Origin: Trypanosoma brucei
Lineage: Eukaryota
DNA: 64,000 bases
Direction of reading: 5' to 3'
NCBI GenBank assembly: GCA_000002445.1
Contig: CP000066.1
Location: 288,001 to 352,000, forward strand
This document shows positions 16,265 through 58,042 of this stretch, piece by piece; position 1 is the stretch's first letter; each line of letters starts with the position of its first letter. The position numbers and the translations under genes were made by a program. The notes below the pieces were generated by a model. That model had not been told where the DNA came from and searched no databases. It worked only from the letters and a program-made list of their open reading frames with translations.

Positions 16265-16349
16265 TATTTATTTATTGGTGTGGAACTGAGTGTTTCTCTC
16301 TTTTCTTTCTGGTTCGCGTTTGGATCCCGTCTACCCCAGAAAAACGGAA

Positions 16350-32098: not shown

Positions 32099-32721
32099 CG
32101 CCCACTCGCGCTTTTAAAAAACTGACTTTCACAGCTTTTGGGAGGCAGTGGCCTCGCCCACCCTTCATAGTGCGGTAGTGGCGATTGGGAGAACGATGGA
32201 TGCACGTTGGGTGTACAAGCGTCACTCAAGAGAGCGGGGGGGGGCCGTTAAAATGTAACTGGTTGTGCTGAGGGTTAAGGGACGGAGATTGTTATATCGT
32301 TCACCGAAAGTAAATATCATATATACATTCTCCCCTCTGCGTATCTACTGGGTTTGTACATGTGGATTACGATCGTGCGCTACTTACTGTGGCAAATAAA
32401 TTTTTATCTTTTCGCTTTTTCTCATCTTCTGCCCTTGCCTCAACTGAACGCTACCGCAGGGTAGTTGCTCCTTCGTTGAATCAAAAAGAATAGGTGAGTG
32501 CTGTAAAAGCGGTCTCAGTGTTTGGTTGAACACCTTTCTCGGAGTCGGGGCAAGAAGGGGGAAAGTGCTTCGCAAAAAGTAACAGAATAATATCACATAT
32601 CTATACATTTGTTTCCTTGTGAGCATTTAACCACACTTAACGCGTGTGTAAAGTGCCACGTGAGAAAGGAGGGTTAGCAGGCGTGCACTGTAGTTCGTGA
32701 ATTGTGCCACGTCTGTCAGTC

Positions 32722-33954
32722 ATGTGGTTCACAAACATTACGAAGGATATTGGAGAGATTACTAGCAGCTTTGTGGAGGATACGCGGAACCTCGCTAATA
32801 TCGTAACCCGCTTTGCCACTGAAGTAACCGGTGGCAATGTTCTCATTGCTGGTGATGAAGACTCACGCCTTGCGCAGCAATGCCCGCTTTCTGACACGGA
32901 TATTGCATCATTCCAGCGGAATAGCATGGTTTTTCTTGACGATATTTCGGAAGATGAGAAGGCGTCATTTGATGTATGGGCAAAGGAAAGTGAGTTTAAA
33001 TCACAGCCACTGCCTCAACGACGAGAAGGGCATGCTGAGCTTTTACCAGGTAGTCGGTATGAGAAGTTAGCAACTTTCCGCCAACAGTTGTTGGATACCA
33101 ATCCGTTCGTGAAGAAAAGGTATGCGGCGTTTGTGTTAAGCGACGAGCGGCGCCACCAAAAGGGGGGTGCGGAGGCCATTGAACATAAAAGAGACGAACA
33201 GGTTGATACAGCTGCCGAACACATGGAAAAAGATGAAATTGCTCCACTGGATGAAACCCTGCGCATTACGGAGGATGTATTTTTTGACCGTTATTTTTTT
33301 CGCCTTTCTCAGCTTCGTCTCCGCCTTGCGGCAGAGCGAAAACAGCGTGAGGAAGCCACTAAAAAGGAGGAGTTGGAGGTCAATGGAGTCGATCAGTGGA
33401 GTAAGGGGGGCCTCAAAGCATTTACCCAGCGTATTGTTGAAGCAGCAGATGGTTTGATCAACTGGGATGACGAAAACAGAGAACGAAGCGGTGAGTCGCA
33501 GCGCACGAAATCAGAGTGCGAAACTCAGGAAAATACTATAGCAGCATTGCAGTCAGTAGTGCAAGCACTGCAGAGTGAGCTGTGGAGTGAAAAACGAAAA
33601 TTAGCGGCCGTGCTGGAAGTGGCGCGTAATTGTGGACTTAGCGAGGAGCAGCAGCGGCTGCTACGTGAGGCGGCACAGAATGAGGAACATAGTGGCAACG
33701 CACCAGTGAGATCTTCCGTCTGTGAGTTGGAGTTGACAGGAAGTGGGCGAAAGTCAATGTCAGTGCGGTCAAAGGGGGGAGATAAGGAAAGTAGGGGAGG
33801 TAGTGTTGATTGCAAGGAGTCAAGGAAAAATGAAGATGGGGCGGATGGGAATGTAAAGGTTTCATCGAAGGCGGCGAGTGAGGGAGATAATAATGAGTCC
33901 AGTTCAGGTGTTCAATTTTTCGTTGACAATGATGGTTGGACAAATGTAAAGTAG
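32722..33954 (+). CDS. Hypothetical charged/coiled-coil protein with a possible BSD-like motif.
   Basis: GC3-rich ORF. ATG at 32722; the track start at 32704 is GTG. DVFFDRYFFRLSQLR loosely resembles the BSD-domain aromatic core. Glu/Arg-rich coiled-coil-like middle (LRLAAERKQREEATKKEELE). Confidence 0.35.
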   Translation: MWFTNITKDIGEITSSFVEDTRNLANIVTRFATEVTGGNVLIAGDEDSRLAQQCPLSDTDIASFQRNSMVFLDDISEDEKASFDVWAKESEFKSQPLPQRREGHAELLPGSRYEKLATFRQQLLDTNPFVKKRYAAFVLSDERRHQKGGAEAIEHKRDEQVDTAAEHMEKDEIAPLDETLRITEDVFFDRYFFRLSQLRLRLAAERKQREEATKKEELEVNGVDQWSKGGLKAFTQRIVEAADGLINWDDENRERSGESQRTKSECETQENTIAALQSVVQALQSELWSEKRKLAAVLEVARNCGLSEEQQRLLREAAQNEEHSGNAPVRSSVCELELTGSGRKSMSVRSKGGDKESRGGSVDCKESRKNEDGADGNVKVSSKAASEGDNNESSSGVQFFVDNDGWTNVK

Positions 33955-35361: not shown

Positions 35362-38300
35362 ATGTTGCTTTGCAAGCAACCAGGGGACACTACCATATTT
35401 GCCACTGCCACAGTAGACCATATCAGCCTTTACAATCTTTCTTCTGTTTCGCCTCTTGCACGGGAGTTGTCGGTAACCCCAACTCCAGACAGGCAACACG
35501 TTCGCATTATTGATTCGACCAATGAGGCCGCTGCCGACCTTTCTCCTTACGGGAATCAACCCTGTTCTGTAATTAACACCATTGTACACAATGCGTGTCG
35601 ACGACCATTTGTTCCAATATGGAGAGTCCCATTCTCGCAGGTGCGCGGTAGCGGCATTAGCGGCGGTGAAGATGAAGCGAACAGATGCACACCGCTTTCG
35701 CTTGCACTTAGTTGTGCTGGGGGCGCGCAGAGGCTATTTGTGTCCGAAAGCGGTAGTGGTGCATGGGTGGGCGAAGGGATGTCATTCTCCGCACTGTCTG
35801 TCCCCTCCGAAATTGTTACAACGAGTGCGTATGTTGACAGAGATACCAGAGCAGAATCAATACAATACACTAAAAGCGGTATTCAAGGGAATGATATTGT
35901 CACATCCGGCTGGGCGTATCGCGACCCAACATTACTTGCCATTGGTCGACATAGGGGTGTTGTGCAACTTCTGCGCGTAGAAGGTAGCGGCTCCCATCCC
36001 TCTCTTCACACCACAGTGGTTCAGGAACGTGTTCTTCAGGGAAGTGTAACTTCTCTCGATTGGGTTCCAAACAGTGACATTCTCGTCGTGGCGGCGCGAC
36101 GGCGAGATGAGTATGGTTGCTTTGCGGAGGTGATGGATTTTCGGTCTCGAGAAGTAGCTATTCGCTACCTCGGTGCCCCACCAGGCGTTACTCCCACTTC
36201 TTCACGCGCTTCGAGGCAACAACAACCCCTGCGCTGTGGTGTTGGTATTGCGTCTACGGGTGCATTATGCTTTGCAGAGGCTATTGCCTGTGACATGTCG
36301 CAGAAGTACGTCGCGGCTGCCGGCAGCAACAACCGCCATGACGTACTTCAACTTTGGGATCTGCGGATGAGCTCAAGGCCAGTTAGTGCGCACGTTCACG
36401 CCAGCCTGGGATACACGTCTCTCAGCTGGGTGTCGTGTGCAACTCCTACTGTAGTCAGCACCACCCGAAAAAGGGGGCTATGGATGTATACGTTTACAGA
36501 TTCGCAAAGTCAAGGTGGTGATGATAGTGATGATAGCGGTGAGGAAAAGGAAAGACGACAACGTTTGCTCCCTTCGGAGGACCGGTATCGCTTACATACC
36601 CGGGTGCCAGCAGCATGTGCTGCATCATTGGGGGGAGACCAAGCTGTTACACCGACTACGGGTGTTGAAACGTCACAACCGGGTGTAGCGGCGTCTCCTC
36701 ACAAGGGAAGTGCACACCATAGAGCAGGCAAATGCGACCAAGTGCAGAATGGGCAACATCTCAAGTTGCCGTGTCTTGTTCTGCTCGATGCCGCTTCGGG
36801 TGAGTTGTACCCACAAGTGGCTCTTCCGAGAAAAACAATGGTCACAATGATCAATGACATCCCTGTGTGGAGCGCGGGACCCAATGTATTTCGCTTTCAT
36901 CGTGATATTAATGAGCTGCTCGACGATATGGAGGATGACAGTAATTTGCAATTACGAAAACAGAAGGACCAGCACATACCCGACACTATCGCTAAGGAAC
37001 CTTCTGCCAGTGCCGGTAGCCTTAGCGAGGGGGAATTTGAAGAAGAGAGCGGTGAGGCGGAGCGCACTGGTGGAAACCTTTTAGACCTGCTGAAAGCATC
37101 AGTGTTCATGAACACAGATTACGACGAAACGACCCTCGCCTCTCTGTCCACGACATTACCGGCTGCAATAAAGGAACGGCCAAATATTCCTACTGTTAGG
37201 CGCCCGTTATTGTCGTTGAGGCGTCTCCGCGAGGGATTCGTGCCTTACTCACATCAAGTTTTTTCTGTGCTGTCACACGAAATGGCAGATCGTGAGGCTT
37301 ATGCTCTGTTCCGCTACGGGTGGTACATGCAACGACACATTCACAAGGGGAAAACAATTACCCCGGCATCTTCTGTTGTTCCCAGCTTACTGGAACTGCT
37401 CCGGAAAAAGCCACAGGTGCAAGTAACTAAAGTCATTCTCCGCGCAATGGGGTGGTGCATCGATCGAGATGAGGAGGCACTGATGCTGCAGCCGTTAGAC
37501 TCCCCAACAACTGTTAGGGAGAGCAGCAGGATCGGTGTTTTATCACCAAACATCGTACCGCAGACGACACACCAGGTATCCGGTCGATTTCATGGCCTTC
37601 CCCTGTATTGCCATCAGAGACCGTTGGCATCTGAAAAGGGAAGCACCATGTTTTCGTCTCCCTCAGCATCGTCCGAAAGTACAGAGTACGCGGCCGATGT
37701 GCTCTCTCAGAACTCTCTACCGCCGTTTGAAAGTCAGGTGGCGCCCTCTCCTGAGGTTGAGTTCTGCGACCGCGTTGGCGCCGCCTCACCGGAGGATGCA
37801 GTTGAACGGCGTGTTGCTATTCATGTTTGCATGGGTTATCTGAGTGAGGCGGCACGACTGCTCTCTCATTACAGTGACCTGCGGCCTTCCTACGCGAATG
37901 TCGCCCTTATACTAGAGTCAGCTGCACAGGGTCATTTTCCGGTTGCAAATATCGTTGCGCCTGCGGGCTGTAGTTACTGGATGCATTTGTGCGTTGAGCT
38001 GTTGGGGATGTATGCACATCATTCGTCCATAGGAGGCGCCGATCAAGGGAACGGCGAGCGCGAGCGACCAGGGTCAGGTTGGTCAAGCGCTTCATCACAC
38101 GTGGCAGGGCGCAAGTTCTTTACGTGTTTCACGAGGCGATACCCTCAAATGCCCCTCCCGGACCAAGTAGCCCTGGCCACAGTTCTGTTATTCCCATACG
38201 CATCAGCCGATTCGCAGGAACAGCTAGCCTCCGGCGATAATAAACGCGAGGAATCGTGGGAGGCCCTAGGTGATATACTTCAAGAGATGACGATGATGCA

Positions 38301-39123
38301 GTTTGATTCTTCTCTAGGTTGCAGTTGCTCCCTTTTCCTTTCGGCGGCTGTCGAGCCACTTGATAGCGAATACACTTCTGTACAACGTTACGTTGATGAA
38401 ACGGGTGACGTGCAAACTCCGGTGGTATACTTTGCACTATATGGGTCTACAAAGAGCAGGAGTTGGCGTTTGTGGAACGATGCCTACCGCACTCAGTTGA
38501 ACAATGGTGGCCATTCAATCCTCCGCAGTATCCACGATCTCGCGTGCTCAAAAATGTCGCAGATGCGTGAAAAGGTAAACGAGAATTTCAAGAGCAGTGA
38601 ATATAATAATTCTATGTCGTTCCCACTCGCTGGCCGGGACGGTGTAGTGCCACTCGCATCAAATTTCGTGGGGAGGACATTTAGTGGTTTCGTGGGAGCG
38701 CCGACGGCTTCCGTAATTTCTGGCACTGAAGGCAGGCCGAAGTCAAAGAGACTAACGGGAACGGGAGGTGTGGTGCTGAGATGCAAATGCGGATGTCGCG
38801 TACCCACATTTCCTGCCAATGCCGAGGGGGATGCGGTGGAACCAACATCAACGGCTATTAAGACAGCGTCCATGGAAGGGAGCCAACAGTCACTGTGCAA
38901 AATACCTGACTGCCTAACACCCATGTGCGTAGTATGCAGCGAGCCGGTATTCCGTCAAAAATCTGGTTATACGTTCGAGGAGTCTTTTACGTGGTGCACC
39001 GTCTGTCTACATGGAGGCCACTGGATGCACTTACGAGAGTGGTTTGTGAAGCATCGAACTTGCCCTGCTGAGGATTGTTCCTGTCGTTGCTACTACCCTT
39101 TAAATGAGCGTTGTGGTGTGTGA
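35362..39123 (+). CDS. WD40 beta-propeller protein with C-terminal C4HC3-type zinc-ribbon/RING module of the SEA/GATOR2 family (WDR24/WDR59/Sea2-3-like).
   Basis: N-terminal WD-like blades (LQLWDLRMSSRPVSAH...). The C-terminus is CKCGCRVP...CKIPDC...CVVCSEPV...CTVCLHGGHWMHLREWFVKHRTCPAEDCSCRCYY. The C.VC.HGGH..H...WF......CP..C.C.C signature matches MIOS/WDR24/WDR59 C-terminal zinc fingers. ATG at 35362; the track start at 35335 is TTG. Confidence 0.55.
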   Translation: MLLCKQPGDTTIFATATVDHISLYNLSSVSPLARELSVTPTPDRQHVRIIDSTNEAAADLSPYGNQPCSVINTIVHNACRRPFVPIWRVPFSQVRGSGISGGEDEANRCTPLSLALSCAGGAQRLFVSESGSGAWVGEGMSFSALSVPSEIVTTSAYVDRDTRAESIQYTKSGIQGNDIVTSGWAYRDPTLLAIGRHRGVVQLLRVEGSGSHPSLHTTVVQERVLQGSVTSLDWVPNSDILVVAARRRDEYGCFAEVMDFRSREVAIRYLGAPPGVTPTSSRASRQQQPLRCGVGIASTGALCFAEAIACDMSQKYVAAAGSNNRHDVLQLWDLRMSSRPVSAHVHASLGYTSLSWVSCATPTVVSTTRKRGLWMYTFTDSQSQGGDDSDDSGEEKERRQRLLPSEDRYRLHTRVPAACAASLGGDQAVTPTTGVETSQPGVAASPHKGSAHHRAGKCDQVQNGQHLKLPCLVLLDAASGELYPQVALPRKTMVTMINDIPVWSAGPNVFRFHRDINELLDDMEDDSNLQLRKQKDQHIPDTIAKEPSASAGSLSEGEFEEESGEAERTGGNLLDLLKASVFMNTDYDETTLASLSTTLPAAIKERPNIPTVRRPLLSLRRLREGFVPYSHQVFSVLSHEMADREAYALFRYGWYMQRHIHKGKTITPASSVVPSLLELLRKKPQVQVTKVILRAMGWCIDRDEEALMLQPLDSPTTVRESSRIGVLSPNIVPQTTHQVSGRFHGLPLYCHQRPLASEKGSTMFSSPSASSESTEYAADVLSQNSLPPFESQVAPSPEVEFCDRVGAASPEDAVERRVAIHVCMGYLSEAARLLSHYSDLRPSYANVALILESAAQGHFPVANIVAPAGCSYWMHLCVELLGMYAHHSSIGGADQGNGERERPGSGWSSASSHVAGRKFFTCFTRRYPQMPLPDQVALATVLLFPYASADSQEQLASGDNKREESWEALGDILQEMTMMQFDSSLGCSCSLFLSAAVEPLDSEYTSVQRYVDETGDVQTPVVYFALYGSTKSRSWRLWNDAYRTQLNNGGHSILRSIHDLACSKMSQMREKVNENFKSSEYNNSMSFPLAGRDGVVPLASNFVGRTFSGFVGAPTASVISGTEGRPKSKRLTGTGGVVLRCKCGCRVPTFPANAEGDAVEPTSTAIKTASMEGSQQSLCKIPDCLTPMCVVCSEPVFRQKSGYTFEESFTWCTVCLHGGHWMHLREWFVKHRTCPAEDCSCRCYYPLNERCGV

Positions 39124-39435
39124 TGTCAGGGTAATTTCTCTGTCGACATGTCAATTTTATACAGTGATACAGTTTGGGCGACGGACTCTTCGTCTGTTGG
39201 CCTCCTGTTCTTGTTAGTGTATGTGTGTTTTGAGTATTCCTTTCATTCGAACCCACGCGCGCACACCTGTATATCTATTTGCTATTCATATGCTACTTTG
39301 CCTCTGTGGGGGTGTATAACCGGACTCTGACTGACTCCAAAGCTCAACTTTCCGAACACCGTTACCCTCGCTGTACATGCGTTTCTTGTGTTTGCACGCG
39401 GATAGTAGTGGGGGCCAAAAACAGTGGTAGGAGCG

Positions 39436-42400
39436 ATGAAGTACTTTGCATGTCGTTTGGATGACCACAATGGCTTTGGTTTACTTATCGGTCACACACT
39501 TAGCTACTTCACTGCGCGCCGGGCCACGACGAAAGGCTTTAGCACTGCGACGCCGAAAAGCGCCGGCAGCGGTACCGATGGTGAAGACGCCTTCAACTTT
39601 CATGTGCAGTATACAGTGACGCTGCCGCATGTCTTCGGTTTTGCCCCGAAGTGTTTTAGCATGGCCAACTATTCTCTTTATGGAGTGGACATGGCAATCA
39701 TCGGCGGTAGCAATGGCGTGCTAGGTGTAGTGGTAATGCACGATGGCAGCATTGTGTATGCACCGGATCGCAGTCCCGAGGTAATGAATGCGAACAATCA
39801 AAGATCAGCGACTACAACATCCGTTTGGGCTCTATCGTGTGCGGCCAGGAGCTTACCATCTGTGCGAATGCTTGATACAGCCTCCACACTCAAGCAGGTG
39901 GCTGGTGCCACATCATCACCACCTTTTCCCCAACCAATGCCTCTTGCAGACAGAGGTGTTGGTACCGTTACTTGGATTCAAAACGACGCGTTGGTGTTCG
40001 TTGGATTTACGTCGGGTCAAGTTGAGTGGTACCGTGTCACCACCCGCATCCGCCAACCAGAAAGCAAAGAGAAGAGTTCGGAATTGATTAATATCGGTAC
40101 AGTTGGAAGGCCAACACGTTCGGGGTGTGTGACGGGAGCTTTTCCGGCGAATGGAGATATGTTTGCAGGGATGACTAATCCTAGTGGCGCGAATCATCGG
40201 ACCTCAGACAGCTTCCCACACCATCAAAGTACATGGGTGAACAGACAGAGTAGGAGAGAGGGTGCACCGCAGTTAGGTTCAAAAGAGGAGCATAAGGATG
40301 GTTGGTTTGTTGACATCTGCAGCCACTACTCAAGTAATTACTTTGCGGAAACTGGGGGTTTTGTGACAAGCGAATATTTCCCCGCCACAGGCCTTGTGCT
40401 TGCTGCAGCAGAGCGGGCGCTCTACGTGTTTACCAGAAAGCAGCCTGAGACAACGCTTTGCTGTGTGCCACGCACTGGGTGCACTTACATTTCCTGTCAT
40501 CCTTCTCTTCCTCTTGTTGCGTGCCTTGGTTGCGGAAACAAAACACCAAATATCAACGGAGATCCTGGGGAAGGTTCATGTGCTCTACAAGTGTTAGAGT
40601 GGACGGATGAGGGAGAGATGTGTCCAGTAACAGAAATTTGTGTTTTGACGCCATCTAGCGACTCAAGTGCACGCTGTTGTTCCCACCTGAATTGTTCGTG
40701 GAATCAGGGCGCCGAGCTGCAACTTGCGGTGTGCAACATGAAGGAGTGTGCCATTCAGTTGTTAAATCTCTCGCGTGCGGAGGAGTGGGTACACTGTGAG
40801 ACAGTACCAACTGCACGCCGTCGCTGGTATGAAATAATCTTCAACCGCGAACTGCACCACCCCTTGCGTTCACTCGTAAACGCAGAGTTCATATTACCGC
40901 GCGTGCTTGAGCAAGACCGAAAGTTGGCGAAACCACCAGCTTTCGCCAGTGACCCTGCCGCTGGTTGCCATGAACGAAAGGGTTCGCATCCGAGGGATTC
41001 TTTGGAAACCAAACGGGGTTCAACAGCAACCCTTAGCAAGGAGGCACCCCCCGCGTTGCTTGCACCGAATCCAGTGCAGGATGGTGAGGGGTGTCTTGTT
41101 AAGAATACAGTCGCTGGAGATGAACGAAGCACCCAGTCTCGAACCAGTGAGATCGCCCCTTGCCGTGCAGTGCCGTCAGTAAGCACTGTCCCTCACGTAA
41201 TTGTTGTGAACACTGTTGGTGAAATTGCGGTAACTCCCCTTCACACCGAGACAAAAGTCGCTTTCTTCGGATTGAACAGTATTGTTGCGGGTATCGGGGC
41301 GACTGTTTGCGCAATCAAGACACCAGCCAAGGAAACTAGCATTAGCGGCTGTTGTGCGGGAGCGCCGACTGCGACGATTACTTTAAGTGTGCCGTTTCCT
41401 TCAAGGAGTGTTCCGGTAACCGCACGTGAAGAGCAGGCCCGTGCCAGCATGGCGGACACGATTGACATCGAAGAGCACATGAGGAAGCGCCTTGCGGCTG
41501 GATTTGGAGTTCCTGCGGCAGCTAATGTGGAGGCGTTGACCAAGTTGAACGGTACTTCCGCCTACGATGTGGACGAACGTGTTCTGTTTTCGTATATCGC
41601 GATTATGGAGAAAGTGGGACTGGTGCGGTGTGATGGTCCGGTACCTAGTATCGTGGAGTTGCTCACTCTTCGTGGCGCACCGAACACTACGCAACTCACC
41701 GACATGGGTTTATTGCCGCATAATACAGCTGTTGTGTGTCGGTCATCCACTTCACAGAATGACTCCAGACGTTTGCTACTTCTTCACTTACTCAACTGGA
41801 TTCCCTCACGAAGTGAATCTCCACAGCGGAACCAGCAAACTCCTGCCACACGAGCGGACGTGGAGCGCGCTGTTGTGGTGGATGTGCTGCATCGGCAGCG
41901 TCTGCGTGCTGCTACATTTCTGCGCCAGCAACTTCACATAGACTCGAACTACAGCATCGTGGCTGGACTAATTGAAAACTATGACAAAGTGGCTAGTGCC
42001 ATGAATGATTGTGCGGGTGAGGTTCGAGAACCCTTTCTTCAGCGTTTGAGTCCTTGGCTACGAGTTGTCTTCACCTTCGAAGCTGACAAGATGGCTGTTT
42101 ACAAGAATGAGGCGCTGCCGTTCTGGGATCGAGTTGCCATTGCACTCATTCTGGAGCACGACACAAAACTTCTTGTTGAATTGCTTCGTAACACTTTTGC
42201 GCCTTTGTGTAATATGGTTCAGGAACTATTGTTGTTTGGAGGTATCTCTGCAAAAACATGTCAACTTATGCAAACAATCGTTGACTGCACCGGAGACTTC
42301 CAATTAGCGGCGTGTCTCTTCGCTCGCATTGGAGTCCACGCGACTGCTACTAGGGGAACGGTCCGAGAAGGTGAATCTGCTTTCAACAGGAATGGTGTGC

Positions 42401-42879
42401 ACGATGATTCCAGCTGGTTCAAGGAGAGCAGTACTGGTCGCCGGGACGAAGTCAACACTGTGGCCAACTATTGGGCACTTTGGTCGGGAGCATATCGTTC
42501 GTTTCTTGACAATGAACGGGAATTTGTTAAGCGAGTTGTGTTTGACCAACAGTGTCAAAACTGTAGCAAGTTATTATATTCTGGCGAGCATGGGACACGC
42601 ACAAAAATAGAAGTGTTGGAGCGAAGTAACAGCACTGGACATGCAGCTGGGGGCCCCGTGACAACATTACAGTTGCCGGTTGCCAATCAGCGTCGTTGTT
42701 ATGTATGTTCTTCCTCTGTACGGCTGGGACCGCTGATGGCAAGGAGTAGTTACGCCCACTGTGCAGTCTGTGGACATGGTGGCCACATCCATCACCTTCA
42801 GGCGTGGTTCCTCGCTCACCAGAAGTGTGCAGCTGCTGGGTGTGGCTGCCACTGTGCGGTGGACGGTCATGTTTCATAG
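39436..42879 (+). CDS. Second WD40 plus C-terminal zinc-ribbon/RING protein, MIOS/Sea4-like. It is a paralogue of the upstream gene.
   Basis: WD-like N-terminus (LVFVGFTSGQVEWYRV). C-terminus CQNCSKLL...RRCYVCSSSV...CAVCGHGGHIHHLQAWFLAHQKCAAAGCGCHCAVDGH closely resembles the MIOS tail (C.TCGHGGH.SH..EWF....CP.GCGCHC). ATG at 39436; the track start at 39424 is GTG. Confidence 0.55.
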   Translation: MKYFACRLDDHNGFGLLIGHTLSYFTARRATTKGFSTATPKSAGSGTDGEDAFNFHVQYTVTLPHVFGFAPKCFSMANYSLYGVDMAIIGGSNGVLGVVVMHDGSIVYAPDRSPEVMNANNQRSATTTSVWALSCAARSLPSVRMLDTASTLKQVAGATSSPPFPQPMPLADRGVGTVTWIQNDALVFVGFTSGQVEWYRVTTRIRQPESKEKSSELINIGTVGRPTRSGCVTGAFPANGDMFAGMTNPSGANHRTSDSFPHHQSTWVNRQSRREGAPQLGSKEEHKDGWFVDICSHYSSNYFAETGGFVTSEYFPATGLVLAAAERALYVFTRKQPETTLCCVPRTGCTYISCHPSLPLVACLGCGNKTPNINGDPGEGSCALQVLEWTDEGEMCPVTEICVLTPSSDSSARCCSHLNCSWNQGAELQLAVCNMKECAIQLLNLSRAEEWVHCETVPTARRRWYEIIFNRELHHPLRSLVNAEFILPRVLEQDRKLAKPPAFASDPAAGCHERKGSHPRDSLETKRGSTATLSKEAPPALLAPNPVQDGEGCLVKNTVAGDERSTQSRTSEIAPCRAVPSVSTVPHVIVVNTVGEIAVTPLHTETKVAFFGLNSIVAGIGATVCAIKTPAKETSISGCCAGAPTATITLSVPFPSRSVPVTAREEQARASMADTIDIEEHMRKRLAAGFGVPAAANVEALTKLNGTSAYDVDERVLFSYIAIMEKVGLVRCDGPVPSIVELLTLRGAPNTTQLTDMGLLPHNTAVVCRSSTSQNDSRRLLLLHLLNWIPSRSESPQRNQQTPATRADVERAVVVDVLHRQRLRAATFLRQQLHIDSNYSIVAGLIENYDKVASAMNDCAGEVREPFLQRLSPWLRVVFTFEADKMAVYKNEALPFWDRVAIALILEHDTKLLVELLRNTFAPLCNMVQELLLFGGISAKTCQLMQTIVDCTGDFQLAACLFARIGVHATATRGTVREGESAFNRNGVHDDSSWFKESSTGRRDEVNTVANYWALWSGAYRSFLDNEREFVKRVVFDQQCQNCSKLLYSGEHGTRTKIEVLERSNSTGHAAGGPVTTLQLPVANQRRCYVCSSSVRLGPLMARSSYAHCAVCGHGGHIHHLQAWFLAHQKCAAAGCGCHCAVDGHVS

Positions 42880-43284
42880 GGTGGGCAAGGGATAATTCTT
42901 CCCTTCCCTCGTTACTTTAAGCCCTGTTTTATTTCAATCTCCTAGGATTCCTGTTGTACTCTTGCATTTGAGGGGCTATATACAACGTATATACATAAAT
43001 GTCATATCTGTGTCGACTGTTGCCCTGCTCTACTTTTCCCCACTTGTTCGCTTCTGCGGGATTGGCAAGGAACACAAGAGACGCACAAAATTGCTTTCTC
43101 ACGCTGTGGTGCTTCCCCTTTCTGATTCTTCTGGTAACTGCTTGGAACATCATCGCTCCGGCTCGTTTCTGTAATATTTTCTCGATTTTATTTATTTCAC
43201 CCTTCTTCATCGACTCCACTCGGGTCGAGTGAAAGTGGTAGTACAAGTGACACACCCGCGTTGGCCCGCCGCGAGGCGCCACGC

Positions 43285-46200
43285 ATGCGAGGAACTGTTT
43301 TGATCTTTGGCAGAAAATTTAGTTGGAATGCTGTGGTCGACGAGTACGGTCACCGACTTCCTCAATGTGCAGGATTGAGTTCCACGCGTAAGAGGCTCTT
43401 GCTAAAAGATTGGAGGTATTTCACATCAACTGGGAGTGAAGAATCACTGACAACATTCTTTAGAAGTGGCCATAAATGTACGAATTCTTTAGAAGATGGA
43501 GATGATGCGCACGCTCACGTAAAAGGTAATGCTGACGTCGTGTACAACGACGGTCAGCAGGGTCGAAAGATCCATCGGGCCCTCCGAGGTGTTGCAGAGT
43601 TTATTGCAGCAACCGGAACCTTTGACGATGTGTGTGCTCCGGGTGAGCGTGGCTACTCAGATGTTTCATTAGCGGTTGAGGGTTTGAAGCGTGCCCGGCT
43701 TGCTGTAGAGTACACGGGAACTGTTCTTTCGCTTTCAAACGATCGGCGGGATGGAATGCTGGCACAGGCGCTTTCTCGAAATCGCCGCAGTGACGAGGAA
43801 GTGGTCAACCAGCAACACTTACGATCTCATTGTGGCGAGGTGCTCAGCCCCTTGGAGGTTGTGGCAATAGCACAGTGGTGTGCGTGGCATGTGCGAACCT
43901 CGTTGAAGGGTGCCAAACATCACCAAGGAACCCCGACGAAGTCGCAAGGGGATGCGGAAACTGCTCGTTGTATAGTCTCTGTTTTGACGCGCTTCCTTTC
44001 CATTCTTGTTGAGGAGGGGCTCCGCCGTTGGGCCGTTGATAGCGTTGCGTGTGAACTCGAACTTAGCGACTTGGTTTGCATCGTGACAGAGGAGGCCCTT
44101 CTTGTACTCCGTGATAATAAAAAAGCGTGCACGTCGGTGAAGTTTGCAACACCTTTGCCTACATGTTCTGTTGGGTGCAGTGCCACAAGTGAACAAACCG
44201 CACTCATGGCCGAGCATTTGAAGCCTGGGATGCGGACTTGGGAAGACCTCTGCTTTGGCGTGAAGGCGCAAGAGGCATTGCTGTGCAGTCAGCGAGAGCG
44301 CTGGCAGCGCGCCCTGCGCCTGTTGCTAGATGTGCAGCGGTGGAATGTCCTCGCAACTACAAAGAACTGTACCACTTCAACGGAAGAAGTGCTGACAAAT
44401 GAATGCGAGGGGAAGTGTCAGTTGCTAGCAAGTAAAGCATTGAACATTCTCTCGATGATCCCACATGGGGTGGTCCAAACACTGCAGTACATCTTAGCCC
44501 AGCATGGGCAGTGGCGTTTGTGCATGATGCTGTGGAAAAGGGGTATTCGTCTTCCTTCCGGCGATGCTCCGACTTGTAATGAAACCGAGGAAGAGCGGCC
44601 ACCGCACTCATTACTTCTTCACCCTGCTGGCCTCAACACCGTTATCACCGCACTGGCGCTTGTCAATGGAAGGCCTTCCAAACATTCATTCACCGCGGCA
44701 ACGTCATCCTTGTTGTGCGCAACAGCAACCGCGGGCGGAACGGAGGGTGTAGATGCGAAGTTGCTGCGGCTGCTCTTGCACCTTGGTGTCATTCCACATC
44801 GCCACTTTACAGTTACCGAATTTGCCACCCTACTCAAGGATGCATTTGGTCTTCATCTCCAAAGCAGTCATGTTGACAGCATTCTATCACCTGCAGCTGT
44901 GTGGCGGTGTTCTGAAGGTCTGCCGTCTCACATGCGTGAAGTATTGTGTTTAATGTGCTTCCGTGTTGTCGCGAGAAGTGGGCTGGCCCACACGTTAATG
45001 CTGGAAGACTTGTACGTTATCATATGCCTTTCCTACCGCACTGTGCTGTCACAAATGTGCCGTCCCATGGCAGAAAGTTCCACTCCGTCAACTCAAAGGG
45101 GGAGAGAGAATATAAGTAACTGCGCTGTGCCCAATATTCAAGGTCGTTGCGAACCGTCCCGAAACGGATTATTGACAGTCGGGTTAGCTGCGGCAACGCG
45201 CAGGACGGCCGTGTTCGCAGAAGAGGACATTCGTACAATAACCGAAGCATTTCTCTCATGTAGTAGTAGGTTATTGGTCCCCTCAGAAAGGGCAAAATCG
45301 TTTCAAAGGGAGGAAGAGGTGTATGCTGGTGTGAATTATACGGATCTGCATCTCTATCGTACGCTCGTAAATGTCAGGATTGGCAGGAATGGGAGCACTG
45401 CAATGCTCTTTACAGTTTCCTCCATGTTGACGAGACTTCTCACTGTGATGCCGCACGTTTTTACACTAGGCACCGTGTGGAGAGGCGCGCTTTGTGCACT
45501 GTCGACTAACTACCAACTGGATGCTTGTGACCATCATTTGGCAGCAGCAGCATCTGTATTCGCGGAAGTGATAGTGGGAACGGCTAGGACGTCCAATAAG
45601 GATGCCCTCGTTGACACCCTCGTGTATTTGGCTCCACTTCTTTCGCCATTCGCGATAGGCCAAATTGTGAAAGGTCCTGTTGGACGTCGGCTCAGTTGGA
45701 CTCATTGCCTTGCTCTGTTACCTTATGCGCCGTGCGCTTCTGGTGCGCAAAGATTGATGTTACGGCGCATCGTAAAAGATTGTGACGTAGAAGGGATGTC
45801 GTTTGTTTACTCCTTACTGCGTATGTCCACGCCTCCGTTGCAGTTACTGCCACAAGCGTCACCGGCTGTCTCAACGGACGTATGTACATTATTGTTACTG
45901 ACTGAGCGGAGTTGGATGCGGGCCCTGCAGGCGTATGGCCGATTTGATCTTCGGGTGCAACGTGCCTGCGCCCCGCACATTGTACGCCTCATCGTTACCG
46001 CTGGAGCGTGGTTGCCACACACTCACAACACCGGCGGGGACGCCAACTGTAGCCATTGCCTCAATGGGTTCGACTCGCTGCTCCATACTGCTCTTCAGGC
46101 AACTGAGGGGAGCCGTGTGGCGGAAGAGGTTCTGCAACTTAGTCTTAAACGTGGATTGTGGGCAGGTGGTCTTGCTTTTCATCAGCGTTTGCAACATGAA

Positions 46201-47562
46201 CATTCAGGTATACTTTTGGGGAATGGTCGAATTAAAACGTGCGCTGCAATGCTGTTTAAAGGACTACTCTCCCATACCGCTCTCGCGCACACAATAGCGG
46301 TTGCCCTCAAACATGCTCGTGCCGCGAGATGGGCGGAGGCTTGTATGGTTCTTCTTGAGGACGACGGTAGTCATGATGGTGCTGAGGAAAGTGGAAGTGT
46401 AACACATTTTGGTGTCACCTCTCTCCACCCAGCTCACTGGTCATCGTTGTTTCGTGACAAGGTGCCCCCACAACTGTCCCATTTAGCCCACACCGTGCGC
46501 TACAGTATGTTGTGTTGCCCTGGTTTATGGCAGCGGGCATTGAAATGGTTGCCACCTCAGGCGCTTCCATTTCCGGTCCATCACCAACTATTGCTTGCTC
46601 GCGTTTCCGGTTTGCCAATTGGTGTGGCAGCCGCGTGTGACGCGGTAACGCCGAAGGTGGAAACGACAACGCCACTTGTTGGCCCACCCCTATCACCCAT
46701 GTCGCTTGTGCAGGTAGCGTTGCAGGAGAAGTTGCGCTGCAGCAAGGCATCGGCGACGGTGGCATCTCAGGCGGAAGTTGAGCGCACACTCCGCGTTTTG
46801 CGTCAACGCGGACAGTGGGAACAAGCAGTCTTGGTTTACGAGCATTCGCTTGCTTGCCGTTGTTTTCCGCATAGTGCAAGTGCCACCGTTGTTGGTGCTT
46901 GCCTGCCTTCGTGGCAGGCGTCCCTTAGTTGCTTTGCGCACATGTCTCAGCGTATGCGTCCCGATGTGGCAACCGCTTCATTAGCTTTGCAAGCTTGCAG
47001 GCGTGGTAGAAAATGGAAGATTGCTCTACGTGTCCTTCAGCAATGCGTGCTTACATCTGCGTCCCGCTCGGCAGGTGAGGTTGTAAGAACTGCACCACAG
47101 TTGATAAATTACGCAATACAGGCGGTTTTGGGTGCCGGCGTTTGGGACGCCGCATTAAATGTGGTTCGCCAATATGGTCAGACAATGAGTCCCTTGCTAG
47201 CAAATACCATTCTTCTGACGTATGTGCGTGCGGAACGATACGATGAAGCTGTGAATTTTTTTTATGGCTGCGTTCGCCGTGGAGTGCGACTGCACGACCA
47301 GTCGCTTGATCTTGTGGTAGCAGCAAGCCAAGCAGTATCGGCAGAATACCATGATTTAGCGCGGTTTGTTGGGGTAATGGCGTCAACTTTGGAGGACTTC
47401 TGTCATGTTCATGGCGTGTTGCTGCAACACGTCCTACTTGTTTGTCGCAGCATTTCTGTTCCCCCCCACGCGTTGGTCCTCTCTTTTAGTTGTGATCAAA
47501 CCGGCGTATCCGCGAGTATGGTATCTGATGATGTCATTAATGCGACTGATTCTATTTGGTGA
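43285..47562 (+). CDS. Large (about 1,425 aa) helical-repeat protein, pentatricopeptide (PPR)-like, probably a mitochondrial RNA-binding protein.
   Basis: C-terminal half has degenerate 35-aa helical hairpin repeats, e.g. LANTILLTYVRAERYDEAVNFFYGCVRRGVRLHDQSLDLVV and SLALQACRRGRKWKIALRVLQQCV (PPR-like ...yn.li..y.r.g..deA..ff..m...Gv.pd). The N-terminus is basic. ATG at 43285; the track start at 43261 is TTG. Confidence 0.4.
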   Translation: MRGTVLIFGRKFSWNAVVDEYGHRLPQCAGLSSTRKRLLLKDWRYFTSTGSEESLTTFFRSGHKCTNSLEDGDDAHAHVKGNADVVYNDGQQGRKIHRALRGVAEFIAATGTFDDVCAPGERGYSDVSLAVEGLKRARLAVEYTGTVLSLSNDRRDGMLAQALSRNRRSDEEVVNQQHLRSHCGEVLSPLEVVAIAQWCAWHVRTSLKGAKHHQGTPTKSQGDAETARCIVSVLTRFLSILVEEGLRRWAVDSVACELELSDLVCIVTEEALLVLRDNKKACTSVKFATPLPTCSVGCSATSEQTALMAEHLKPGMRTWEDLCFGVKAQEALLCSQRERWQRALRLLLDVQRWNVLATTKNCTTSTEEVLTNECEGKCQLLASKALNILSMIPHGVVQTLQYILAQHGQWRLCMMLWKRGIRLPSGDAPTCNETEEERPPHSLLLHPAGLNTVITALALVNGRPSKHSFTAATSSLLCATATAGGTEGVDAKLLRLLLHLGVIPHRHFTVTEFATLLKDAFGLHLQSSHVDSILSPAAVWRCSEGLPSHMREVLCLMCFRVVARSGLAHTLMLEDLYVIICLSYRTVLSQMCRPMAESSTPSTQRGRENISNCAVPNIQGRCEPSRNGLLTVGLAAATRRTAVFAEEDIRTITEAFLSCSSRLLVPSERAKSFQREEEVYAGVNYTDLHLYRTLVNVRIGRNGSTAMLFTVSSMLTRLLTVMPHVFTLGTVWRGALCALSTNYQLDACDHHLAAAASVFAEVIVGTARTSNKDALVDTLVYLAPLLSPFAIGQIVKGPVGRRLSWTHCLALLPYAPCASGAQRLMLRRIVKDCDVEGMSFVYSLLRMSTPPLQLLPQASPAVSTDVCTLLLLTERSWMRALQAYGRFDLRVQRACAPHIVRLIVTAGAWLPHTHNTGGDANCSHCLNGFDSLLHTALQATEGSRVAEEVLQLSLKRGLWAGGLAFHQRLQHEHSGILLGNGRIKTCAAMLFKGLLSHTALAHTIAVALKHARAARWAEACMVLLEDDGSHDGAEESGSVTHFGVTSLHPAHWSSLFRDKVPPQLSHLAHTVRYSMLCCPGLWQRALKWLPPQALPFPVHHQLLLARVSGLPIGVAAACDAVTPKVETTTPLVGPPLSPMSLVQVALQEKLRCSKASATVASQAEVERTLRVLRQRGQWEQAVLVYEHSLACRCFPHSASATVVGACLPSWQASLSCFAHMSQRMRPDVATASLALQACRRGRKWKIALRVLQQCVLTSASRSAGEVVRTAPQLINYAIQAVLGAGVWDAALNVVRQYGQTMSPLLANTILLTYVRAERYDEAVNFFYGCVRRGVRLHDQSLDLVVAASQAVSAEYHDLARFVGVMASTLEDFCHVHGVLLQHVLLVCRSISVPPHALVLSFSCDQTGVSASMVSDDVINATDSIW

Positions 47563-52581: not shown

Positions 52582-53469
52582 GCAATTTGCACAAATACGT
52601 ATATCAACGTCTGTCTGTGGGTGCATGTTTGTGTGTTCGAATGGAGAGAGATGAAGGACCGCTGCCAAAAGCAGTGAAACGCCCGAGTATTATTCCAAAC
52701 AGTGAAGTCCCAGATGCGGATGCAGGGAGGTAAAACAGAAGAGGGGCAACATACGCTGCTACGGAAGCAATGTTTGTGGTGACAACCGTCAGCAATGCGG
52801 GTTGAAGACGAGAGCACGCGGGTGTGAGTAACATCAACGTTGCGGTATCTTTCCTTCCACTTTCTTCTTTTAGATCCCTTAAGGATAGTGCTTGTGCGAC
52901 TTCCCATTACTGCTTGAATTAGGGGAAAGCAGTACTGAAAGGGCTGGGTGATAACGGGAAGGCACCTTAGCAAGAAGAATGAGGGAAGGAGCGTAAATAA
53001 AAACCAAACGTAAACAGGTAAATAATTACGGTAGTTCGGTTAAAAGTCCCGCAGGCTCAAGAGCGGCCTGTTGTGTGGGGATTAAAAAAGGAAAAAGGGA
53101 GCGGTAATACAAAGTTTCTGCTCTGCTGGTGTTTCGCTGTTGTTCTGACCTGCAGAGGTGCAATATGCTGCGCGGCCCCCATTTCCCCACATGGCTTTAC
53201 CTTTCTCTTATCTGCTTGAATTCTGCCTCTCGTTATTTCATACACCCCGTCTCATTGTTTTCTCCGTATCCTTTGGCATTTTGTTGTCTCATATTATCCA
53301 CGGTAACATCGATGTGGAAAAGGTGGGCTGGGAGGGGCTGGGGTTGCTTCGGTGTGAGCGTACAGTAGACGTTGCGTTGGCCACTTCTTCTCAACTGCGT
53401 TCGCGTGCGCAGCTATAAAGCTACCCCGTCCCTCTTTTTTATTTTATTCGTCACAGTTACGGACCGTTG

Positions 53470-56458: not shown

Positions 56459-58042
<1,584 letters not shown>

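What the first reader, a model, noticed from the sequence alone, without database searches (positions are those of the whole stretch)
35362..42879. Tandem pair of paralogous WD40 + MIOS-type zinc-ribbon/RING genes: SEA/GATOR2-like subunits side by side in a kinetoplastid
Two adjacent large genes (about 1,250 and 1,150 aa) have WD-repeat N-termini and end in the same unusual Cys/His module. Gene 1 ends C.C...C..C...C.VC.HGGHWMHLREWF..H..CPAEDCSCRC. Gene 2 ends CAVCGHGGHIHHLQAWF..H..CAAAGCGCHC. The HGGH-centred C4HC3-like zinc ribbon is, to my knowledge, characteristic of the Sea2/Sea3/Sea4 and WDR24/WDR59/MIOS subunits of the SEA/GATOR2 complex, the nutrient-sensing arm upstream of TORC1. It is not the RING-H2 of the Vps11/18/41 tethers. 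Two such subunits from an ancient duplication sitting in tandem would point to a SEA/GATOR-like complex in this lineage, and I do not recall one being characterised there. Which subunit each gene corresponds to is not resolved.
Basis: partly seen in the sequence, partly recalled or inferred. Interest (0 to 1): 0.7.

Follow-up and report, generated by a model that had tools for sequence, protein, structure and literature searches.

The report
Tandem MIOS paralogues in a trypanosome
Two neighbouring trypanosome genes are both diverged copies of MIOS/Sea4, a scaffold protein of the GATOR2/SEACAT nutrient-sensing complex; the family was already recognisable in databases, but the conserved duplicated pair seems not to have been described.

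Summary
Two separate + strand genes (35362-39123, 1253 aa; 39436-42879, 1147 aa) end in the same HGGH-centred Cys/His module.

The module is the GATOR2/SEACAT type, not a HOPS/CORVET RING. But the genes are not two different subunits. Both are full-length homologues of one subunit, MIOS/Sea4:
- Solved structures: MIOS and Sea4 come first for both; WDR24/WDR59 are far weaker or absent.
- Profile comparison with a verified MIOS alignment: E 6.5e-54 and 4.2e-57.

Gene 1 keeps all 16 MIOS zinc-ligand positions. Gene 2 keeps 12, having lost the first zinc finger. A propeller-type N-terminus is well supported for gene 1 and only moderately for gene 2. Both structure predictions failed (pLDDT 34-39).

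The pair is in tandem across Trypanosomatidae. Bodo saltans has gene 2 without gene 1 directly upstream. A crude tree puts the duplication inside the euglenozoan lineage.

Databases already name the orthologues "MIO zinc-ribbon", and a Leishmania paper lists GATOR2 homologues. I found no experimental work and no mention of the paralogue pair.

Best guess: the two proteins fill the two non-equivalent MIOS positions of a GATOR2-like cage. Interest is modest.

The parts
35362..39123 (+). Gene 1 (G1), 1253 aa. This is the canonical-type MIOS/Sea4 homologue. By position it is probably the T. brucei Tb927.3.1310 orthologue (inference).
   Evidence: ORF. Best solved-structure hits are MIOS (1.7e-8) and Sea4. 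The family profile hits only MIOS and Sea4 below E 0.1, at 7e-9 to 9e-7. hhalign against a verified MIOS alignment gives E 6.5e-54 over residues 175-1243.
35362..36891 (+). G1 N-terminal all-beta region (aa 1-510). It is WD40/beta-propeller-like. Its last conserved strands (aa 461-510) align to the MIOS segment just before the solenoid.
   Evidence: hhalign of the G1 N-terminus against the MIOS WD40 region gives 97.7%, E 1.7e-12, with repeat-shifted secondary hits. Shuffled controls give E >= 0.39. The AF2 model shows only strands here but at low confidence.
37201..38601 (+). G1 alpha-solenoid (aa 614-1080), including the RLRxGF and QRYVDETGDVQTP motifs.
   Evidence: hhalign against the MIOS solenoid gives 99.5%, E 3.5e-22. 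The AF2 model places helices at 614-1080. The motif is aligned to human MIOS YVDRTGDVQTA.
38770..39096 (+). G1 C-terminal zinc domain (aa 1137-1245). It has a zinc finger (CxC...CxxxxC) followed by a CxxC...CxxCxHxxH..H..H..C....CxCxC RING-like part.
   Evidence: hhalign against the whole MIOS C-terminal domain gives 99.9%, E 2.4e-33. All 16 MIOS ligand positions are kept. Pfam PF17034 scores 24.6 bits against a cut-off of 27.
39124..39435 (+). Intergenic spacer between the two genes, with pyrimidine-rich tracts as expected for trans-splicing and polyadenylation signals.
   Evidence: Sequence read. The G1 stop is at 39121-39123 and the G2 ATG at 39436.
39436..42879 (+). Gene 2 (G2), 1147 aa. 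This is the divergent MIOS/Sea4 paralogue. By position it is probably the T. brucei Tb927.3.1320 orthologue (inference).
   Evidence: ORF. Best solved-structure hits are MIOS (6.7e-11) and Sea4. The family profile gives MIOS 1.6e-18, Sea4 1.1e-13, WDR59 7.6e-5 and WDR24 2.7e-4. hhalign against MIOS gives E 4.2e-57 over residues 8-1143.
39436..41310 (+). G2 N-terminal region (aa 1-625). It is probably a beta-propeller with large inserts. It includes the conserved start MKYFAC.PDSHNGF and strands at aa 584-625 that align to the MIOS pre-solenoid segment.
   Evidence: hhalign of the G2 N-terminus against MIOS WD40 gives 91.4%, E 9.2e-7. With -M 50 it gives only E 1.9e-3, score 35.6, against at most 16 for shuffled controls. 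The full-length alignment starts at residue 8. The AF2 model has strands only, at pLDDT < 50.
41458..42579 (+). G2 alpha-solenoid (aa 675-1048), including the RLAAGFG and IVDCTGDFQLA motifs.
   Evidence: phmmer aligns aa 762-960 to human MIOS 472-677. hhalign against the MIOS solenoid gives 99.9%, E 1.2e-36. This is the best-predicted part of the AF2 model, with pLDDT 63-81 at aa 800-900.
42685..42858 (+). G2 C-terminal RING-like zinc module (aa 1084-1141). It starts at CYVC, and the upstream MIOS zinc finger is missing.
   Evidence: hhalign covers only positions 52-121 of the 122-position MIOS C-terminal domain, E 1.6e-27. 12 of the 16 ligand positions are kept; the first CxxC...CxxC pair is absent in Trypanosoma G2 orthologues.

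Best explanation
Both genes encode MIOS/Sea4-type scaffold proteins. Each has an N-terminal WD40-like propeller, a short strand segment, a MIOS-type alpha-solenoid and a C-terminal zinc domain. They are paralogues from a duplication inside the euglenozoan/kinetoplastid lineage, and they have stayed adjacent in one polycistron throughout Trypanosomatidae.

G1 is the conservative copy, with the full four-zinc C-terminal domain. G2 has lost the first zinc finger.

Inferred mechanism, not shown. By analogy with MIOS, the strand segment would complete the open propeller of a Sec13-type partner. As in human GATOR2 and yeast SEACAT, each copy would bind such a Sec13-type propeller; Seh1 is reported absent from excavates. 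Each would join through its zinc domain to a WDR24-like or WDR59-like subunit to build a cage at the lysosome that feeds into Rag/TORC1 nutrient signalling. In human GATOR2 four identical MIOS chains sit in two non-equivalent places, the 'brace' and the 'gloves'. In trypanosomatids the two paralogues most plausibly divide these two places between them.

The confidence of 0.6 is for the whole statement. Membership of the MIOS/Sea4 family alone I put at about 0.9. Membership of a GATOR2-like complex acting on TORC1 I put at about 0.55-0.6. The brace/glove division of labour I put at about 0.35.
For: - Family assignment. phmmer and profile searches of all solved structures rank MIOS and then Sea4 first for both genes, far ahead of WDR24 and WDR59. 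hhalign against a 29-member MIOS alignment gives E 6.5e-54 for G1 and 4.2e-57 for G2, full length for G2. That alignment was verified with Pfam: 29/29 PF17034, 23 MIOS_a-sol, 22 MIOS_WD40. All three domains match separately, and shuffled controls are clean.
- Paralogy. G1 family against G2 family gives E 2.5e-42 over the solenoid and C-terminal domain.
- Zinc ligands. G1 keeps 16/16 and G2 12/16.
- Both copies are under long-term selection. Intact orthologues of both, in tandem, occur in T. cruzi, Lotmaria passim and another trypanosomatid. In T. conorhini, T. rangeli and T. grayi the two orthologues carry consecutive locus tags. The G2 orthologue in Bodo saltans is confirmed by its conserved downstream neighbour.
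- Lineage-specific duplication. G1, G2 and six unnamed protist sequences separate from all other MIOS, Naegleria included, in 97/100 neighbour-joining bootstraps.
- Complex context from the literature. Human GATOR2 is 4 MIOS-SEH1L + 2 WDR24-SEH1L + 2 WDR59-SEC13, with MIOS in brace and glove positions (PMC12507694). Leishmania has WDR24-, WDR59-, MIOS-, SEC13-, Sestrin-, RagA- and RagC-like genes (PMC7901767). T. brucei has a Sestrin with GATOR2-binding motifs (PMC11429811).
Against: - No evidence here or in the library shows that either protein is in a complex, sits at the lysosome or affects TORC1.
- Both structure predictions failed (pLDDT 34 and 38.6). The folds rest on profile homology alone, and the G2 propeller match is only moderate (E 9e-7 to 2e-3).
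- NPRL2 and NPRL3 were not found in Leishmania by BLAST and DEPDC5 only weakly. Seh1 is reported absent from excavates (PMC8421043). The pathway may therefore be wired differently.
- The tree is neighbour-joining on very divergent sequences without a WDR24/WDR59 outgroup. Long-branch attraction could create the G1+G2 grouping.
- G1 and G2 are about as far from each other as from other MIOS by HMM score.
- In Bodo, G1 is not directly upstream of G2, so tandem duplication as the origin is not proven.
Confidence: 0.6

Rival explanations
1. One of the two genes is the lineage's WDR24/Sea2 or WDR59/Sea3 orthologue. The pair would then represent two different GATOR2 subunits.
For: All three subunit types share the propeller-solenoid-RING plan. 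G2 also gives weak hits to the WDR59 and WDR24 C-terminal domains (7.6e-5 and 2.7e-4) and to Pfam zf-RING_16 (1.3e-3).
Against: - For both genes MIOS and Sea4 score many orders of magnitude better.
- The solenoids match the MIOS solenoid specifically (E 3.5e-22 and 1.2e-36).
- No RWD domain was found.
- The top 150 of 937 homologues of G2 are all MIOS-type where checked.
- Leishmania has separate best hits for WDR24 and WDR59 on chromosomes 20 and 30.
Confidence: 0.04
2. The two MIOS-like proteins are real family members but work outside canonical GATOR1/Rag/TORC1 control. They could act as a coat- or tether-like scaffold, or as a RING E3 ligase module of the endolysosomal system, or form two separate complexes.
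For: - GATOR1 appears incomplete in Leishmania: NPRL2/3 were not found by BLAST.
- Seh1 is absent from excavates.
- SEACAT/GATOR2 proteins are coatomer-derived (PMC9727805).
- The two copies are highly divergent (about 25% identity over the aligned part), and G2 has lost a zinc finger. Both points are compatible with neofunctionalisation.
Against: Rag GTPases, Raptor, TOR, a Sestrin and WDR24-like and WDR59-like genes are all present in trypanosomatids, which is the natural context for MIOS. BLAST is a weak test for the fast-evolving NPRL2/3.
Confidence: 0.25
3. G2 is a decaying duplicate with no function of its own.
For: - It lost the first zinc finger.
- Its N-terminal half matches MIOS only weakly.
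- In the window's copy, Ala replaces the conserved Pro after one ligand Cys (CAAAGC instead of CPxxxC).
Against: - A full-length open reading frame is kept from Bodo saltans to Trypanosoma and Leishmaniinae.
- The 12 remaining ligand positions are conserved: ten are kept in 15 of the 16 G2 sequences examined, with T. vivax left unaligned, and the CxxC pair is kept in the four aligned Trypanosoma sequences.
- Its solenoid is closer to MIOS than the G1 solenoid is (E 1.2e-36 against 3.5e-22).
Confidence: 0.03
4. They are HOPS/CORVET-type (Vps11/18/39/41) RING tether subunits.
For: They share the same general propeller-solenoid-RING plan.
Against: There are no Pfam or solved-structure hits to any Vps protein for either gene or either family profile. 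All significant hits are GATOR2/SEACAT chains.
Confidence: 0.01

Closest known systems
Human MIOS (GATOR2 subunit; PDB 7UHY, 9LVJ, 9DX0-2) and Pfam families PF21720 MIOS_WD40, PF21719 MIOS_a-sol, PF17034 zinc_ribbon_16
   Same: The domain order is the same: propeller region, strand segment, MIOS-type solenoid with the (R)A..G(Y/F)G and YVDxTGDVQT motifs, and a C-terminal CxxCxHGGHxxH...WFxxHxxCPxxxCxCxC module. MIOS is the best hit in solved structures for both genes.
   Different: - Sequences are very diverged. The single sequences fall below every Pfam cut-off, and the proteins are 270-380 residues longer, with large low-complexity inserts.
- There are two paralogues instead of one gene.
- G2 lacks the first zinc finger.
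- The usual partner Seh1 is reported missing in this lineage.
- CASTOR, the arginine sensor that binds the MIOS propeller in humans, was not found in Leishmania.
Yeast Sea4 (SEACAT subunit; PDB 8ADL, 9H5K)
   Same: It is the second-best solved-structure hit for both families (9.1e-7 for G1, 1.1e-13 for G2). It has the same architecture and is likewise long, with inserts.
   Different: It is a single gene in yeast and pairs with Seh1. No paralogue specialisation is known.
WDR24/Sea2 and WDR59/Sea3 (the other RING subunits of GATOR2/SEACAT)
   Same: They share the protocoatomer plan and a related C-terminal RING. In human GATOR2 they are the partners of the MIOS C-terminal domain in the junctions between C-terminal domains.
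   Different: Similarity is much weaker and confined to the RING, with no hit at all for the G1 profile. There is no RWD domain. Leishmania has separate candidates for both.
Leishmania donovani LdCL_250018400, listed as the MIOS homologue in PMC7901767
   Same: It is a trypanosomatid best BLAST hit to human MIOS, found through its C-terminal 82 residues. It is probably an orthologue of G1 or G2 (inference; I could not fetch the sequence).
   Different: The paper lists one MIOS hit only. It does not mention a second paralogue or the tandem arrangement.

Membership tests
MIOS/Sea4 (GATOR2/SEACAT scaffold subunit) | C-terminal zinc-ribbon/RING domain of the PF17034 type with the CxxCxHGGH...H..C....CxCxC signature. 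| tested here: met
   Pfam PF17034 scores 24.6 and 22.7 bits, just under the 27-bit cut-off. hhalign of the family C-terminal domains against the MIOS C-terminal domain gives E 2.4e-33 for G1 (whole domain) and 1.6e-27 for G2 (RING half only). Ligand positions kept: 16/16 in G1, 12/16 in G2.
MIOS/Sea4 (GATOR2/SEACAT scaffold subunit) | MIOS-type alpha-solenoid (PF21719). | tested here: met
   The single sequences do not reach Pfam. phmmer aligns G2 762-960 to human MIOS 472-677. hhalign gives E 3.5e-22 (G1) and 1.2e-36 (G2) against the solenoid of a Pfam-verified MIOS alignment.
MIOS/Sea4 (GATOR2/SEACAT scaffold subunit) | N-terminal WD40 beta-propeller (PF21720). | tested here: inconclusive
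   G1 is supported: E 1e-12 to 1.7e-12, with repeat-shifted secondary hits. G2 is weaker: E 9.2e-7 or 1.9e-3 depending on settings. Shuffled controls give E >= 0.39. The AF2 models show only strands but at pLDDT < 50. No Pfam WD40 hit.
MIOS/Sea4 (GATOR2/SEACAT scaffold subunit) | Closer to MIOS/Sea4 than to the sister subunits WDR24/Sea2 and WDR59/Sea3. | tested here: met
   Profile search of all solved structures. G1 hits only MIOS and Sea4 below E 0.1. G2 gives MIOS 1.6e-18, Sea4 1.1e-13, WDR59 7.6e-5 and WDR24 2.7e-4. No rooted phylogeny was possible.
MIOS/Sea4 (GATOR2/SEACAT scaffold subunit) | Assembles with Seh1/Sec13, WDR24 and WDR59 into the GATOR2/SEACAT cage. | not testable with these tools
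   Only literature context is available. Leishmania has WDR24-, WDR59- and SEC13-like genes, and Seh1 is reported absent from excavates. Affinity purification or a multimer structure prediction is needed.
MIOS/Sea4 (GATOR2/SEACAT scaffold subunit) | Acts upstream of Rag GTPases/TORC1 by opposing GATOR1. | not testable with these tools
   No functional data were found in the library. NPRL2/3 were not found in Leishmania by BLAST.
WDR59/Sea3 | RWD domain after the propeller, and a PF17120-type RING as the best C-terminal match. | tested here: not met
   No RWD hit at E <= 1. PF17120 is weaker than PF17034 in both genes. WDR59 chains score E 0.47 (G1) and 5.3e-5 (G2), against 1.7e-8 and 6.7e-11 for MIOS.
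HOPS/CORVET RING subunits (Vps11, Vps18, Vps39, Vps41) | Clathrin-heavy-chain/Vps-type solenoid repeats and a RING-H2 or Vps39-type C-terminus. | tested here: not met
   No Vps, CHCR or zf-RING-H2 family appears among the Pfam hits at E <= 1. No Vps chain appears among the solved-structure hits at E <= 1.

The most novel reading that the evidence does not exclude
Trypanosomatids, and perhaps all kinetoplastids, build a GATOR2/SEACAT-like cage in which the two structurally non-equivalent MIOS positions are filled by two dedicated paralogues. In human GATOR2 these positions are the 'brace' pair that binds the arginine sensor and the 'glove' pair, both filled by one gene product. G1 would be the copy with the full four-zinc domain. 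G2 would be the copy that has shed the first zinc finger and so has a different junction or hinge. The cage would use Sec13-type propellers only, because Seh1 is absent. This would be a natural experiment that separates the functions of the two MIOS positions, in a parasite whose nutrient sensing drives its life-cycle transitions.
Probability: 0.35. Interest if true: 0.55.

Novelty: new member of a known kind. Interest (0 to 1): 0.33.

Why it matters
How trypanosomes sense amino acids upstream of TOR is poorly understood. The GATOR2 side of that pathway has only been listed by BLAST in Leishmania. This work gives two concrete, testable candidates. They are probably Tb927.3.1310 and Tb927.3.1320 if the window is T. 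brucei, an inference from gene order.

It also shows that the lineage carries two MIOS-type scaffolds, one with a trimmed zinc domain, kept side by side across Trypanosomatidae. If they occupy the two distinct MIOS positions seen in the human cage, they would let the roles of those positions be separated genetically. That cannot be done in organisms with a single MIOS gene.

If they do not, the finding is simply a lineage-specific duplication of a known scaffold gene.

Tried and rejected
1. Structure prediction. Both AlphaFold2 jobs gave unusable models: G2 full length with 5 sequences (pLDDT 34, pTM 0.28) and G1 residues 1-1200 with 9 sequences (pLDDT 38.6). The permitted alignments were too shallow. 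I ran no fold searches on them, because matches to such models would be meaningless.

2. The third word-indexed homologue search, with a mixed G1+G2 C-terminal alignment (A3), returned only two already known proteins. It was a wasted call.

3. Single-sequence Pfam does not reach the cut-off for any MIOS domain and finds no WD40. Profile-profile comparison was needed.

4. Dokudovskaya et al. 2011 (taxon distribution of the SEA complex) and Valenstein et al. 2022 (first GATOR2 structure) are not held. I used the 2025 Nature paper from the same group instead.

5. Phylogeny. No maximum-likelihood program was available and no WDR24/WDR59 sequences were in hand for rooting. The top 150 hits of the representative search were all MIOS-type. 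Only a bootstrapped neighbour-joining tree was made. In it 'G2' as I defined it was not monophyletic: Bodo P0033 and P0032 fell next to G1 and unnamed sequences. Orthology of the Bodo protein to G2 therefore rests on HMM scores (168 against 64 bits) and on synteny.

6. I considered and rejected the readings as HOPS/CORVET RING proteins, as WDR24/WDR59 orthologues and as a decaying pseudogene (see rivals).

7. Searching the rest of the genome for Seh1, Npr2/3 and Iml1 was not possible, because only the window is available. The window itself holds none of them.

Full report
**What is in the sequence.**
Between 35362 and 42879 there are two long ORFs on the + strand. Gene 1 (G1) runs from the ATG at 35362 to the stop at 39121-39123 and encodes 1253 aa. 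Gene 2 (G2) runs from the ATG at 39436 to the stop at 42877-42879 and encodes 1147 aa. A 312-nt spacer with pyrimidine-rich tracts separates them. Every ORF of 250 aa or more in the 64-kb window lies on the + strand, which is the usual look of a kinetoplastid polycistron. The coordinates, sizes and shared motif are therefore confirmed.

**Which organism.**
The closest named relatives of G1 are T. congolense (48% identity) and T. vivax (38%). For G2 they are T. grayi, T. conorhini and T. cruzi (35-39%). The window also carries:
- a kinetoplastid Dicer of 948 aa;
- an SLX1-like nuclease and a Sec24;
- a cullin and CBP66;
- a C5 DNA methyltransferase.

In T. brucei, DCL2 is Tb927.3.1230 and CBP66 is Tb927.3.1340. 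The window is therefore most likely T. brucei chromosome 3 or a very close relative. By gene order G1 and G2 would be Tb927.3.1310 and Tb927.3.1320. That is an inference from position, not a database result. Neither identifier occurs in the main text of any paper in the library.

**Family assignment.**
- *Single-sequence Pfam.* The scan gives only sub-threshold hits, and all of them lie in the last 40-60 residues. PF17034 zinc_ribbon_16 scores 24.6 and 22.7 bits against a cut-off of 27, and PF17120 zf-RING_16 is weaker.
- *Solved structures.* phmmer ranks human MIOS first for both genes (1.7e-8 for G1, 6.7e-11 for G2), then yeast Sea4. WDR24 and WDR59 score weakly. For G2 the match includes about 200 residues of the MIOS alpha-solenoid. 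For G1 it includes the motif QRYVDETGDVQTP against MIOS YVDRTGDVQTA.
- *Family profiles.* With profiles built from the Trypanosoma orthologues, G1 hits only MIOS and Sea4 below E 0.1 (7e-9 to 9e-7). G2 hits MIOS at 1.6e-18 and Sea4 at 1.1e-13, against 7.6e-5 for WDR59 and 2.7e-4 for WDR24.
- *Exhaustive search.* An HMMER search of 1.84 billion representative proteins with the G2 profile found 937 homologues. I aligned 29 full-length ones. Pfam confirmed them as MIOS: 29/29 PF17034, 23 MIOS_a-sol, 22 MIOS_WD40.
- *Profile-profile comparison.* Against this MIOS alignment hhalign gives E 6.5e-54 for the G1 family (residues 175-1243) and E 4.2e-57 for the G2 family (residues 8-1143).
- *Domain by domain*:

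| Domain | G1 family vs MIOS | G2 family vs MIOS |
|---|---|---|
| Alpha-solenoid | E 3.5e-22 | E 1.2e-36 |
| C-terminal zinc domain | E 2.4e-33 | E 1.6e-27 |
| N-terminal region | E 1.7e-12 | E 9.2e-7 |

- *Controls.* With a different choice of match columns the N-terminal values are 1e-12 for G1 but only 1.9e-3 for G2. Six column-shuffled controls gave E 0.39-0.85.
- *Excluded families.* No Vps/HOPS/CORVET family and no RWD domain appears anywhere.

Both genes are thus MIOS/Sea4-type over their whole length. The propeller is well supported for G1 and moderately for G2.

**Structure prediction failed.**
AlphaFold2 with the shallow permitted alignments gave pLDDT 34 for G2 and 38.6 for G1 residues 1-1200. 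The models show strands only in the first 500-600 residues, helices in the middle and a small beta element at the end. This agrees with propeller, solenoid and zinc domain, but it is not evidence of fold. I ran no fold searches on them.

**How the two copies differ.**
- The families match each other only over the solenoid and C-terminal domain (E 1.6e-27; E 2.5e-42 with deeper alignments).
- Their N-terminal halves barely match (E 1.3e-4).
- By HMM score each is about as far from the other as from MIOS of unrelated eukaryotes.
- The clearest structural difference is in the zinc domain. MIOS has 16 conserved Cys/His positions, and the human cage model holds 32 zinc ions in its eight C-terminal domains.
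- G1 and its orthologues keep all 16 positions. These include the upstream finger LRCxCG...C..P.C...P.C.VC.
- G2 aligns only to the RING half. It keeps the last 12 positions and lacks the first CxxC...CxxC pair. The loss is clear in Trypanosoma, while some Leishmaniinae keep remnants.
- In both proteins a conserved strand segment aligns with the MIOS segment between propeller and solenoid: G1 461-510 and G2 584-625. From my own knowledge of GATOR2 structures, that segment is the part that completes the open propeller of SEH1L. I did not test this here.

**Age and arrangement of the pair.**
- *T. cruzi.* The order cullin, small ORF, G1, G2, large ORF, CBP66, WD40 protein is the same as in the window.
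- *T. conorhini, T. rangeli and T. grayi.* The two orthologues have consecutive locus tags.
- *Lotmaria passim (Leishmaniinae).* The gene upstream of the G2 orthologue is the G1 orthologue (763.8 bits to the G1 HMM) and carries the full zinc domain.
- *A further trypanosomatid contig.* The G1 orthologue is followed by an ORF that starts MKYFSCQPDSHNAF, the G2 N-terminus.
- *Bodo saltans.* The G2 orthologue scores 168 against 64 bits for the two HMMs. It keeps the downstream neighbour, which is homologous to the window's 1433-aa gene at E 1.1e-13. The gene upstream is an unrelated methyltransferase-like protein.
- *A distant G1-type protein from an unnamed organism (P0129).* It has no G2 downstream.

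The tandem arrangement is therefore fixed in Trypanosomatidae. G2 is at least as old as kinetoplastids. Whether the pair arose as a tandem duplicate is open.

A bootstrapped neighbour-joining tree of the solenoid and C-terminal domain (437 columns, 86 sequences) separates G1, G2 and six unnamed protist sequences from all other MIOS, Naegleria included, in 97 of 100 replicates. G1 is monophyletic in 98. This favours a duplication inside the euglenozoan lineage. The method is crude, there is no outgroup, and long-branch attraction cannot be excluded.

**What is already known.**
- SEA/GATOR subunits are said to have 'some representation in protists' (PMC8534245).
- A Leishmania donovani paper tabulates BLAST homologues of SEC13, WDR59, WDR24, MIOS (one gene, on chromosome 25), DEPDC5 (weak), Sestrin and RagA/C. 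It reports NPRL2, NPRL3 and CASTOR as absent (PMC7901767).
- A Sestrin with GATOR2-binding motifs is reported in T. brucei (PMC11429811).
- Seh1 is reported absent from excavates (PMC8421043).
- UniProt already labels the T. conorhini, T. rangeli and T. cruzi orthologues as 'GATOR2 complex protein MIO...' or 'WD repeat protein mio zinc-ribbon...'.
- I found no paper that mentions two MIOS paralogues, the tandem pair, or any experiment on either protein.

**Most likely mechanism.**
Shown: both are MIOS/Sea4 family members, paralogous, long conserved and adjacent.

Inferred: they are scaffold subunits of a GATOR2/SEACAT-like cage. In the human complex four MIOS-SEH1L units, two WDR24-SEH1L units and two WDR59-SEC13 units form an octagonal scaffold. 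The MIOS C-terminal domains form junctions with those of WDR24 and WDR59. The four MIOS propellers sit in two non-equivalent places, a dimeric 'brace' that binds CASTOR1 and two 'gloves' (PMC12507694). A lineage with two MIOS genes could assign one to each place. The loss of a zinc finger in G2 would then alter one type of junction.

This is attractive but untested. I give it about 0.35. The main rival is that the pair works outside canonical GATOR1-Rag-TORC1 control. It is kept alive by the apparent lack of NPRL2/3 and Seh1.

**Verdict.**
It is wrong in expecting two different subunits and an ancient duplication, and it overstates the novelty of a GATOR2-like set in kinetoplastids. What is new is modest: a conserved tandem pair of MIOS paralogues, one with a reduced zinc domain.

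I rate it a new member of a known kind, interest 0.33.

Noticed in passing
window 43261-47562 (+); L005 12102-17342: The 1433-aa gene directly downstream of G2 has only a weak TPR hint. It is also the downstream neighbour of the G2 orthologue in Bodo saltans (phmmer E 1.1e-13) and in T. cruzi (a 1494-aa gene). The G2-to-this-gene adjacency is therefore older than the G1-G2 adjacency. Its function is unknown, and synteny in polycistrons need not mean a functional link.
   Followed up: partly
window 16290-21165 (+); L005 17557-21846: An SLX1-like GIY-YIG nuclease and a kinetoplastid Dicer (KptA_kDCL and La_HTH_kDCL domains, 948 aa, consistent with TbDCL2) lie about 14-19 kb upstream of G1. In Bodo saltans the same two genes lie just downstream of the G2 block. 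The neighbourhood is shared but rearranged.
   Followed up: partly
window 53467-55335 (+): An ORF of 622 aa has a strong C-5 cytosine DNA methyltransferase domain (PF00145, E 5.6e-45). It is presumably the trypanosome DNMT-like gene.
   Followed up: no
window 32704-33954 (+): The 416-aa ORF directly upstream of G1 has no Pfam hit. By position it would be Tb927.3.1300, which one paper says was once listed as a protein kinase but lacks a kinase domain (PMC2716717). A 439-aa gene sits at the same place in T. cruzi.
   Followed up: no
window 56483-58042 (+) and 59492-60928 (+): A V-type ATPase A/B-family subunit and an LMBR1-like membrane protein lie 14-18 kb downstream. In other eukaryotes both families are linked to lysosome biology. 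Their proximity to the MIOS pair is probably coincidental.
   Followed up: no
window 14-7003 (+), 11834-14776 (+), 62298-63395 (+): Other genes in the window are a 2329-aa HYDIN/CFAP65-like Ig-domain protein (running in from the window start), a Sec24-type COPII subunit, and a MEC-17-type alpha-tubulin acetyltransferase.
   Followed up: no
proteins P0036, P0037, P0039, P0049, P0041, P0084 (metagenome/Logan, unnamed): Six MIOS-type proteins of about 880-1070 aa from unnamed organisms cluster with the kinetoplastid G1/G2 group rather than with mainstream MIOS. Several share the G1-style finger (L.C.CGQ.LH.TA). They may be from diplonemids or euglenids and could date the duplication, but their source organisms could not be identified.
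   Followed up: partly
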